Assembly (NCBI GenBank): GCA_963693055.1
Contig: OY843751.1
Location: 1,824,001-1,888,000 of the forward strand
Source of the DNA: a bacterium
Lineage (GTDB): Bacteria; Zhuqueibacterota; Zhuqueibacteria; Residuimicrobiales; Krinioviventaceae
DNA length: 64,000 bases
Direction: 5' to 3'
Shown here: positions 45,357 through 47,859 of the stretch, piece after piece
Numbering within the stretch: position 1 is the first letter of the stretch
Layout of the letters: every line of letters starts with the position of its first letter
Position numbers and translations under genes: made by a program
Notes under the pieces: generated by a model
What the model saw: only the letters and a program-made list of their open reading frames with translations
Told to the model about the DNA's origin: nothing
Databases searched by the model: none

Positions 45357-45923
45357 TTAATTTTTTCTTACAAAATTTTCAATGATTTTCATACCATCTT
45401 TGGTCATAATCGATTCAGGATGAAACTGAACGCCCTCTACAGGATACTCTTTATGACGAATGCCCATAATCTGGTGATCTGCAGTTTCAGCAGTAATTTC
45501 AAGACAGTCTGGTAAAGATTCCCTTTCTACAATTAGAGAGTGATATCTGCCGCCTTTTAAAGGATTTGGAACATTTGCAAATAGCCCTTTACCATCATGA
45601 TTAATATCGCTGTCCTTTCCATGAACCAGTTCTTTGGCCTGAATAACTTTGCCTTGAAATGCTTCTGCAATGGATTGGTGTCCCAGGCAGACCCCAAGCA
45701 ATGGATATTTTTTGTAAAATGTTTTAATTACATCCAGAGAAATTCCTGCTGAATTCGGATACCCCGGTCCCGGAGAGATCACGATCTTGTCCGGATTCAA
45801 CTTTTCAATTTCTTCCAAGGTGATTTCATCATTTCGTTTAACTATTAGTGTTTCACCTAGCGTACCAATATATTGGACCAAATTATAAGTAAATGAATCA
45901 TAATTATCTATTACCAGTATCAT
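45357..45923 (-). CDS. trpG: Anthranilate synthase component II
   Basis: [29 protein letters not shown]. Confidence 0.95.
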
Positions 45924-47392
45924 AACAAACCTCCCTGCGCATATTCTATTGCTGTCAAAAGCCCTTTGGCTTTATTCAGTGTCTCTTGATATTCACTTTC
46001 AGGTACAGAATCCGCAACAATACCTGCGCCTGCCTGTACATAAGCATTATTATCTTTTATGTATATCGTTCTTATGGCAATACACACATCCATATTGCCG
46101 TTAAATCCAAAATATCCTGCTGCTCCGGCGTAAATACCGCGTTTTGTCGGTTCCAGTTCTTCAATGATTTCCATAGCTCTTACCTTTGGCGCTCCCGAAA
46201 CAGTACCGGCAGGAAAGCATGCTTTAAAAACATCAATGGCATCCATGCCTTCTTTTAGCTTGCCGCTAACAGTAGAGACAATGTGTATGACATGAGAATA
46301 TTTTTCCGTTATCATTAAATCTTCAACTTTGACAGATCCATATTCAGCAATACGGCCAATATCATTTCGACCCAAATCGACCAGCATGGTATGTTCAGCT
46401 CTTTCTTTGGGATCTGCCAACAACTCGTTTATGATTTCCTTATCTTCCTGTTCGTTTAAGCCTCGTTTCCGTGTGCCGGCAATCGGTTTGACCAAAACCT
46501 TGCCGTCTTCTAGTTTAACCAGTGTTTCCGGAGATGAGCCAAGAATGCTTGTATTATCCATGTCGAGATAAAACATATAAGGGGAGGGATTAATAACGCG
46601 TAAAGCCCGGTAAATATCAAAAGGATTGGTGTCTGTACTGACTCTGAGCCGTTGAGAGAGCACGCCCTGAAAGATATCGCCCTTTTTAATATATTCTTTG
46701 GTTTTTTCAACTATTTTTTTGTATTCCTCTTTGCTGATATTGCTTTCAAAGTAATCTGATTTAAGCAAGCTTGTTCTGCCATTCCGAAATTCGGGGCTGG
46801 AATGAATAGAATCTATAATATCTTTGATCTTGTTAACAGCTTCTGCATATTCTTTTTCTACGTTTCCTTTTGTTACAACATTATAGATAATTGTAATCGT
46901 ATTAAAGAGGTTGTCAAATACGATTACTTTTTGAGGAATGAACAATTGTATATCCGGTAATTCCATATCATCTATAGTCTGATCCGGAAGTTTTTCAATA
47001 TAACGGATAGAGTCGTAACCCATATAGCCAAAGAATCCATTATCGATAAATGGTATTTGATGAGAACTGTTGCTTTTGTATTGTTTATAAAGATTTTTAA
47101 GAACCTGAAATGGATTTTCTGTAAATGTCTCTTTTTCACCTGAATAAACATACTCGATATCTGTAACATTATTTTTGCATGTGAAAATTACAAGCGGGCT
47201 GTCACCAATTATTGAATAGCGCCCACGTTGTACTCCACCTTCAACGCTTTCCAGTAAAAAGCGAAATTTTCCGTTTGTTGCTTTCAGGAAAGTAGAGACG
47301 GGTGTGTCCATATCACCCAGAATTTCTGCCGTAACCGGATGAAAGTTTGAACTGTATTGTTCTCTAAATTCTTCAAAAGTCGTAATTTTCAT
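45920..47392 (-). CDS. trpE: Anthranilate synthase component I
   Basis: [38 protein letters not shown]. Confidence 0.96.
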
Positions 47393-47408
47393 AATTTCTC
47401 CTATAAAT

Positions 47409-47446
47409 AAAAAAGGCGCTGTGATTTCGAGTGCTCACAGCGCCTT
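47409..47446 (-). terminator. trp attenuator terminator 2 (proximal to trpE)
   Basis: Minus strand AAGGCGCTGTGA-gcactcgaaa-TCACAGCGCCTT followed by TTTTATTT. Confidence 0.8.
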
Positions 47447-47450
47447 AAAC

Positions 47451-47486
47451 AAAAAACGCCGTGAATGTAATGGTACATCCACGGCG
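47451..47486 (-). terminator. trp attenuator terminator 1
   Basis: Minus strand CGCCGTGGATGTA-ccat-TACATTCACGGCG followed by TTTTTTGTTT. Confidence 0.8.
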
Positions 47487-47511
47487 AACATTTTTTATAT
47501 ATTAAATTATT

Positions 47512-47583
47512 TTACCGATGGCGTACCTTAAAACTCCAACGCCACCACCAATTTAAAAGATTTTGTAAAATAATTTGTGTCAT
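47512..47583 (-). CDS. trpL: trp operon leader peptide MTQIILQNLLNWWWRWSFKVRHR
   Basis: 23-aa ORF with WWWRW, SD-like GGAAAAAG, directly upstream of the terminators and trpE; too short for the ORF track. Confidence 0.88.
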   Translation of the reverse strand: MTQIILQNLLNWWWRWSFKVRHR

Positions 47584-47613
47584 TCTTTTTCCATAAAATT
47601 GTTAACGAGCCAA

Positions 47614-47642
47614 AAATTAACATAATAAAATGTGAATGTCAA
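47614..47642 (-). promoter_or_regulatory. Putative trp promoter
   Basis: Minus strand TTGACA-N17-TAATTT. Confidence 0.5.
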
Positions 47643-47737: not shown

Positions 47738-47859
47738 GAGGTTCGAATTTTGTAGGCTTGGTTCTTTTTTAAAATATCTAAAAATTTAAGCCCAAGTATT
47801 TGGGCTGTTTTGTGTTTATTTTGTTTGTTCAAGATTTAGTATAATATAAAGGTTTTTTT

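What the first reader, a model, noticed from the sequence alone, without database searches (positions are those of the whole stretch)
47405..47590. trp attenuator with two tandem terminators apparently coupled by strand exchange
Seen (minus strand): leader peptide with WWWRW; 1:2 pairing GGTGGCGT/ACGCCATC; antiterminator GGTACGCCATCGGT pairing with the 5' arm of terminator 1 (GCCGTGGATGTACC); then two complete U-tailed terminators. The 3' arm of T1 (TCACGGCGTT) resembles the 3' arm of T2 (TCACAGCGCC) and can pair with the 5' arm of T2 (GGCGCTGTGA) over 10 positions including G-U pairs. Known: classical ribosome-mediated attenuators (E. coli trpL) use one terminator. Inference: when stalling at Trp opens T1, its freed 3' arm acts as antiterminator of T2. 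One ribosome event would then switch two terminators in series, lowering leak and raising dynamic range.
Basis: partly seen in the sequence, partly recalled or inferred. Interest (0 to 1): 0.7.

Follow-up and report, generated by a model that had tools for sequence, protein, structure and literature searches.

The report
Tryptophan attenuator with relayed twin terminators
In front of the tryptophan-synthesis genes of uncultured KSB1 bacteria sits a conserved RNA switch with two back-to-back stop-signal hairpins whose arms can swap partners, so one stalled ribosome likely opens both stops, a variant of the long-known histidine-operon switch.

Summary
A Trp-rich leader ORF (47583-47512, minus strand), 1:2 and 2:3 pairings and two U-tailed hairpins (T1, T2) precede trpEGDCFBA. 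The T1 3' arm pairs with the T2 5' arm (13 bp, -16.7 kcal/mol). The layout is in 20 of 20 same-order genomes with DNA upstream of trpE, 10 of 10 pattern-found leaders, and 4 of 28 leaders from other orders, where the stem letters differ. The relay helix keeps 239 of 240 core cells. All 16 changed cells of the T2 5' arm still pair with T1 3', while T2's own 3' arm drifts. The T1 U-tract holds in 30 of 30. What looks new is the combination, a his-type relay whose middle hairpin is itself terminator-like, on a trp operon, likely born by terminator duplication. Termination at either hairpin is untested because no RNA data were found. This scan noted similar relayed twin terminators before, on other DNA. 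New variant of a known kind.

The parts
47614..47642 (-). likely sigma-70 promoter: TTGACA (47642-47637), 17 nt, TAATTT (47619-47614) preceded by TGn
   Evidence: read by eye; not listed by the consensus scan; a TTG(A/C)(C/A) box lies 86-95 nt upstream of the first Trp codon in 14 of 19 leaders
47512..47583 (-). leader peptide ORF, 23 aa, MTQIILQNLLNWWWRWSFKVRHR*; Trp codons at 47550-47542 and 47538-47536
   Evidence: Trp-rich leader in 30 of 30 homologues
47539..47552 (-). strand 1 (Trp codons); pairs with strand 2
   Evidence: 1:2 helix -14.6 kcal/mol
47514..47527 (-). strand 2 (GGTACGCCATCGGT), last codons of the leader ORF; pairs with the T1 5' arm and loop (2:3 antiterminator)
   Evidence: -16.2 kcal/mol; 96.7% of 270 cells paired, 3 pairs with changes on both sides
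47457..47486 (-). hairpin T1 (strands 3:4), 13 bp, 4-nt loop
   Evidence: 99.4% of cells paired
47447..47456 (-). U-tract of T1; its first 4 U also close the relay helix, the rest form its loop
   Evidence: at least 6 T in 8 in 30 of 30 homologues
47434..47465 (-). relay helix (strands 4:5): T1 3' arm 47465-47453 with T2 5' arm 47446-47434
   Evidence: -16.7 kcal/mol; 239 of 240 core cells paired; 99.4% of 325 cells
47413..47446 (-). hairpin T2 (strands 5:6), 12 bp, 10-nt loop
   Evidence: 96.9% of cells paired, 6 of 11 pairs with changes on both sides
47405..47414 (-). U-tract of T2
   Evidence: at least 6 T in 8 in 30 of 30 homologues
47398..47402 (-). trpE ribosome-binding site AGGAG, outside the T2 stem
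45920..47392 (-). trpE, first gene of trpEGDCFBA (operon runs to 40961)
   Evidence: TIGR00564 trpE_most over its cut-off; trpG, D, C, B, A over cut-offs; trpF best hit just below its cut-off

Best explanation
This is likely a ribosome-stalling transcription attenuator of the trp operon, with six pairing strands and two predicted terminators in series, in which the freed 3' arm of the first hairpin is predicted to block the second. With Trp plentiful the ribosome would run to the stop codon at 47514-47512 and cover strand 2. T1 (3:4) folds and is predicted to release most polymerases at about 47450. Any polymerase that leaks through still carries folded T1, so T2 (5:6) folds and is predicted to stop it at about 47408. 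With Trp scarce the ribosome would stall on the Trp run, and strand 2 captures strand 3. Strand 4 is then single-stranded when the T2 5' arm emerges, pairs with it (4:5), and T2 cannot nucleate before its U-tract is passed. Shown: sequences, pairing potential, conservation. Inferred: ribosome control, termination at each hairpin, lower leak, origin by terminator duplication.
For: (1) Both hairpins with U-tracts and the relay are in 20 of 20 same-order genomes with upstream DNA, chosen by TrpE and not by the RNA, and in 10 of 10 further leaders found by a T1-only pattern. (2) Relay columns 1-8: 239 of 240 cells paired. In the top three columns the relay pairs in 90 of 90 cells and T2's own stem in 76 of 90. 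(3) All 16 changed cells of the T2 5' arm keep pairing with T1 3'. The T2 3' arm has 45 changed cells, 13 of them breaking T2. In 34 cells T2 stays wobble or mismatched where a 5'-side repair would break the relay. (4) Relay column 1 shows U-A, U-G, C-G and A-U. C occurs only opposite G, in two separate TrpE clades, each with a U-G intermediate; L016 keeps A-U in the relay while T1 and T2 are both mismatched there. (5) A sister clade (L259, L261, L263, L265) has other stem letters, including a G-C to C-G swap, and still a relay of -13.5 to -17.0. Both groups form one TrpE clade (SH-aLRT 98, quick tree of 23 rows). (6) With the last two stem bases hidden, the relay beats T2 in 29 of 30 leaders when T1 is open, and T2 wins in 29 of 30 when T1 is folded; T1 forms in 30 of 30 with the ribosome at the stop codon. 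(7) T1 tail positions 5-8, mostly in the relay loop, are 78% T against 36% in the upstream spacer. (8) T1 3' is the best upstream partner of the T2 5' arm in 30 of 30.
Against: No transcript ends were seen. Equilibrium folding favours T1+T2 on full-length RNA even with strand 1 removed. With a crude ribosome mask, 2:3 beats T1 in only 15 of 30 leaders on a stall at the first Trp codon and 13 of 30 at the last; for this window P(T1) is 0.03 and 0.99. The ON state must therefore be kinetically trapped, as also seen for E. coli his. The relay-to-T2 barrier here (9.2 kcal/mol; median 11.1, range 8.6-18.9) is below the E. coli trp (12.5) and his (15.6) controls. L164 has a weak relay (-11.1; T2 wins). 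True two-sided changes in the relay rest on about 3 events in one column; the pair-count measure is reached by 98 of 500 shuffles. In the sister clade that top column is unpaired. Sequences are related, so counts overstate. T1 tails are interrupted in some lineages (L013, L147, L164, L167). TrpR is missing in single-terminator relatives too (0 of 22 over cut-off), so lack of a repressor does not explain the double design.
Confidence: 0.62

Rival explanations
1. Plain his-type attenuator: T1 is only the middle (anti-antiterminator or pause) hairpin, T2 is the one effective terminator, and the U-run after T1 is kept for pairing with the purines at the base of T2 and for pausing.
For: The E. coli his leader has the same relay with a single terminator. 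T2 tails are on average cleaner than T1 tails (7.3 against 7.0 T in 8; several T1 tails broken at positions 3-5). The first four U pair in the relay, and in the sister clade U-tract:A-tract pairs make up much of it.
Against: The his C:D hairpin has no U-tract. T1 has a 4-nt loop, a -18 to -28 kcal/mol stem and at least 6 T in 8 in 30 of 30 leaders, including tail positions not needed for pairing. In L069 and L177, where the spacer is much longer, 8-9 U stay directly behind T1.
Confidence: 0.22
2. Duplication by-product: T2 is a copy of T1, the cross-complementarity is inherited and has no function, and T2 is a constant partial terminator that only scales expression down.
For: T1 and T2 resemble each other, and in the sister clade their stem bases are identical. 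Any tandem copy of a hairpin gives 3'-arm/5'-arm complementarity. Few independent two-sided changes.
Against: Loops and spacers are fully diverged across an order, yet the T2 5' arm follows the T1 3' arm more faithfully than its own partner. An unregulated -21 kcal/mol hairpin with a 7-of-8 U tail would block most operon transcription in all conditions (established terminator behaviour; inference).
Confidence: 0.08
3. T2 is not a decision point but a post-transcriptional element: a 3' end or stabiliser for a released leader RNA (rnTrpL-like), or a control on trpE translation.
For: Attenuator-derived trans-acting RNA is known for Sinorhizobium trpL (PMC6614838, search listing only). T2 has unusually long loops (median 10 nt, up to 21).
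Against: The trpE ribosome-binding site is outside the T2 stem. The distance from T2 to trpE varies from 22 to about 200 nt. The conserved U-tract and relay fit termination control.
Confidence: 0.08

Closest known systems
his operon attenuator of E. coli/Salmonella (strands A-F; labels recalled, structure recomputed on the fetched E. coli leader)
   Same: Leader peptide, a middle hairpin between the first helix and the terminator, and a 4:5 (D:E) helix as the real antiterminator; middle and terminal hairpins resemble each other. The extra hairpin is proposed to minimise basal read-through in a repressor-less operon (PMC1183508 section 13, read in full).
   Different: Senses Trp, not His. No Rfam His_leader match. 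The middle hairpin carries a conserved U-tract, which the E. coli C:D hairpin lacks. The 4:5 helix is a compact near-continuous hairpin.
trpL attenuator of E. coli (Rfam Trp_leader) and Bacteroid-trp motif (RF01692)
   Same: Trp-codon leader ORF, 1:2 and 2:3 helices and a U-tailed hairpin ahead of trpE.
   Different: Those have four strands and one terminator; no Rfam match. The stop codon lies after strand 2. No TrpR or TRAP found in this genome.
ermK/ermD transcriptional attenuator of Bacillus licheniformis
   Same: Ribosome-stalling leader with two adjacent Rho-independent terminators (one sentence in PMC4335068).
   Different: Induced by macrolide stalling, unrelated sequence. Whether its terminators are coupled by arm exchange could not be checked: the primary papers are not held, and the ermD leader was only read by eye in a supplement.
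rimP leader of some Gammaproteobacteria
   Same: A second terminator in tandem upstream of the first, with a potential antiterminator (PMC2965389 passage).
   Different: No amino-acid leader peptide mentioned in the passage; no arm exchange between the two terminators described there.

Membership tests
Ribosome-mediated (leader peptide) transcription attenuator | Short leader ORF rich in codons for the operon's amino acid | tested here: met
   4 Trp codons; 2-5 in 30 of 30 homologues; operon is trpEGDCFBA
Ribosome-mediated (leader peptide) transcription attenuator | Mutually exclusive antiterminator and terminator, conserved | tested here: met
   2:3 helix 96.7% paired with two-sided changes; T1 and T2 98.2% paired
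Ribosome-mediated (leader peptide) transcription attenuator | Trp-dependent premature termination that needs leader translation | not testable with these tools
   needs transcript-end or reporter data
his-type six-strand relay attenuator (works like) | Middle hairpin whose 3' arm is the antiterminator of the downstream terminator | tested here: met
his-type six-strand relay attenuator (works like) | Middle hairpin is not a terminator (no U-tract) | tested here: not met
   U-tract in 30 of 30; absent in E. coli his
Rfam Trp_leader / His_leader / Bacteroid-trp families | Score above the gathering threshold | tested here: not met
   none among 15 matches to E 10; RF01692 in 0 of 41 genomes, control Bacteroides positive
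Intrinsic terminator (T1) | GC-rich hairpin followed by a U-tract | tested here: met
Intrinsic terminator (T2) | GC-rich hairpin followed by a U-tract | tested here: met
   loop longer than the 3-8 nt consensus, so missed
Intrinsic terminator (T1 and T2) | Measured RNA release at the U-tract | not testable with these tools
   needs Term-seq or in vitro transcription
ermK-type two-terminator attenuator | Two adjacent leader terminators under one stalling event, and how they are coupled | tested here: inconclusive
   two adjacent terminator-like hairpins present; the ermK mechanism was seen only in one secondary sentence
TRAP- or TrpR-controlled trp leaders | Regulator gene in the genome | tested here: not met
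   PF02081 0 of 1; PF01371 1 of 43 order genomes, not this one

The most novel reading that the evidence does not exclude
Tandem duplication of an attenuator's terminator automatically creates a strand-exchange relay, giving two true terminators switched by one ribosome stall with multiplicatively lower leak. This KSB1 trp leader is a long-conserved example, the same scaffold also stands before cysK, and the his attenuator's extra hairpin may be a duplicate terminator that lost its U-tract.
Probability: 0.35. Interest if true: 0.65.

Novelty: new variant of a known kind. Interest (0 to 1): 0.47.

Why it matters
It gives a compact (about 170 nt) natural test case for whether terminators can be chained under one input without losing inducibility. 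Leak would fall as the product of two read-through rates while one stalling event opens both. It makes testable a published model in which the his extra hairpin exists to lower basal read-through, and it suggests a simple evolutionary route, terminator duplication, from four-strand to six-strand attenuators. Relatives with one terminator, and one-terminator trpB2-like and hisG leaders in the same genome, supply natural controls. It is also a trp leader RNA family not in Rfam.

Tried and rejected
Spacer extension: extra pairs in the long spacers of L069 and L177 looked like support for the relay, but 30-59% of spacer shuffles fold as well (4 leaders), so it was dropped as evidence. Repeat element: T2 has no other copy in the genome, and the leader has no plasmid match. 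SD sequestration by T2: rejected. Lack of TrpR as the reason for two terminators: not discriminating. Sequencing runs: no RNA holder listed, so no reads were laid. The AT-to-T1 barriers used a fixed window that in some leaders includes strand 1 and were not used. Rows dropped before counting: L012, L018 and L026 (no DNA upstream of trpE); 18 pattern loci that by eye repeat genome leaders already held; and all pattern loci without trpE, mostly chance hits. Six leaders with short TrpE were left out of the tree. MAFFT places gaps for L016 and L019 in relay column 1, so one search does not count them there; one search uses hand-set registers. Literature: searches listed no paper on a trp attenuator with two arm-exchanging terminators or on KSB1 trp leaders. 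Subscription papers and the classic his and ermK papers were not available, so absence from print is not established.

Full report
Observation. The minus strand of 47600-47392 carries, in order, a likely promoter, a 23-codon leader ORF with WWWRW (47583-47512), two hairpins with U-tails and the start of trpE. The downstream genes are trpE, G, D, C, F, B, A. Folding gives 1:2 at -14.6, 2:3 at -16.2, T1 at -20.6, T2 at -20.7 and a T1-3'/T2-5' hairpin of 13 bp at -16.7 kcal/mol. The stretch from strand 2 to the T2 5' arm folds as 2:3 plus relay (-32.9), and the full leader as 1:2 + T1 + T2 (z -6.7). Rfam has no matching family (RF01692 in 0 of 41 genomes). T2 is not a repeat. It is the only tandem pair among 496 terminator-like sites of the genome.

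Distribution. Record titles of close relatives name candidate division KSB1, among other labels. Of 43 genomes in the order, 22 have a TrpE match. Two have it at a contig start; the other 20, this genome included, all show leader ORF, T1, U-tract, T2 and U-tract. Outside the order I examined 28 of 46 class genomes with TrpE. Four have two U-tailed hairpins (L259, L261, L263, L265), 22 have one (16 by scan, 6 by eye) and 2 show no leader. On a quick TrpE tree of 23 rows the two double-terminator groups form one clade (SH-aLRT 98), apart from single-terminator leaders (midpoint root). A single origin is therefore plausible but not proven.

Is the relay under selection? In 30 leaders the eight core relay columns pair in 239 of 240 cells. 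In the top three columns the relay pairs in 90 of 90 cells and T2's own stem in only 76 of 90. The T2 5' arm differs from the majority in 16 cells, none breaking the relay. The T2 3' arm differs in 45 cells, 13 breaking T2. In 34 cells T2 is left wobbled or mismatched where the repair on the 5' side would break the relay. Column 1 takes U-A (22), C-G (5), U-G (2) and A-U (1). C appears only opposite G, in two separate clades each with a U-G intermediate, and L016 keeps A-U in the relay while T1 and T2 both mismatch there. The pair-counting tool gives 99.4% of 325 cells, with 0 of 500 shuffles reaching the percentage or the covariation score but 98 of 500 reaching the number of two-sided pairs; slid controls pair 36-56%. 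The 2:3 helix and both hairpins also covary. In the sister clade the stems read differently (a G-C column becomes C-G) and the relay persists at -13.5 to -17.0, with more weight on U:A pairs and an unpaired top column. Against: related sequences inflate counts, independent two-sided events are few, L164's relay is weak, and the apparent extension of the relay by longer spacers is not beyond shuffles.

Is T1 a terminator? Both tails have at least 6 T in 8 in 30 of 30 leaders (means 7.0 and 7.3). T1 tail positions 5-8, mostly in the relay loop, are 78% T against 36% in the spacer and 21% in the T2 loop. This favours termination or at least pausing at T1, but some tails are interrupted and nothing was measured.

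Mechanism. With the ribosome at the stop codon T1 forms in 30 of 30 leaders. If T1 is folded T2 forms in 29 of 30, and if T1 is open the relay excludes nascent T2 in 29 of 30. The weak step in equilibrium terms is 2:3 against T1 (15 of 30 on a stall at the first Trp codon, 13 of 30 at the last), so the ON state relies on 2:3 and 4:5 forming first. Direct-path barriers from relay to T2 are 9.2 kcal/mol here and a median 11.1 overall, against 12.5 for E. coli trp and 15.6 for his computed the same way. T2's long loop (median 10 nt) would slow its folding and favour the relay (inference). TrpR was found in 1 of 43 order genomes and TRAP not in this genome, so attenuation may be the main control. 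Single-terminator relatives lack TrpR too, and the trpB2-like and hisG leaders of this genome have one terminator.

Comparison. The fetched E. coli his leader folds as A:B, C:D, E:F or as B:C, D:E, with C:D resembling E:F and no U-tract after C:D (letter labels recalled). [quoted passage not shown] The primary papers were not held, and the ermD leader in the supplement of PMC6333372 (part 1 of 3 of one file) was only read by eye. PMC2965389 (passages) describes a tandem second terminator in some rimP leaders. PMC10065794, PMC9291695 and PMC11721399 (passages) added only background and references. So the relay is known, and two leader terminators are known. Their combination in an amino-acid attenuator was not found in the searches listed under Tried and rejected. 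Unchecked notes of this scan describe similar relayed twin terminators in other genomes; none concerns this leader.

Verdict. A real, conserved trp attenuator. The relay is very likely functional (about 0.85); termination at both hairpins is likely but untested (about 0.6 for the whole model). It works like the his attenuator but is not a member of any Rfam leader family. New variant of a known kind, interest 0.47.

Noticed in passing
L291:72-165 (G096:C242, contig start): The same two-hairpin relay scaffold (relay -15.7 kcal/mol) stands before a cysteine synthase gene (cysK-like, partial protein scanned); the leader ORF is cut off by the contig end.
   Followed up: partly
window 47594-47580 (-): A 4-codon ORF (MEKE*) overlaps the leader start as ATGA in this genome and G001; its GGAAAAAG may simply be the leader's ribosome-binding site.
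   Followed up: no
G000:C1 near 4335613 (+) and 2919142 (-): Leader-peptide attenuators with one terminator before a trpB2-like gene (MTKQNNNWQFTWAWWWNMFCYSG*) and hisG (MPNYTVHHHHHLHIT*); gene names are from the N-terminal sequence by recall.
   Followed up: partly
L022-L027, L260, L262, L264, L268, L269, L271: Single-terminator trp leaders of other KSB1 orders mix Trp with Tyr and Phe codons (for example YWYWYYY), suggesting they sense aromatic amino acids jointly.
   Followed up: no
L008, L009, L011, L014, L016, L017: Insertions put 73-198 nt, some palindromic by eye, between T2 and trpE without disturbing the switch.
   Followed up: no
window 47789-47806: Perfect hairpin AGCCCAAATACTTGGGCT between the divergent trp and riboflavin-synthesis (ribD-like, name by recall) promoters, also in G001; could be an operator or terminator.
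   Followed up: no
L257 (G004:C23:834056-834304): The only TrpR-family gene among 43 order genomes, in a genome that also has the double-terminator leader.
   Followed up: no
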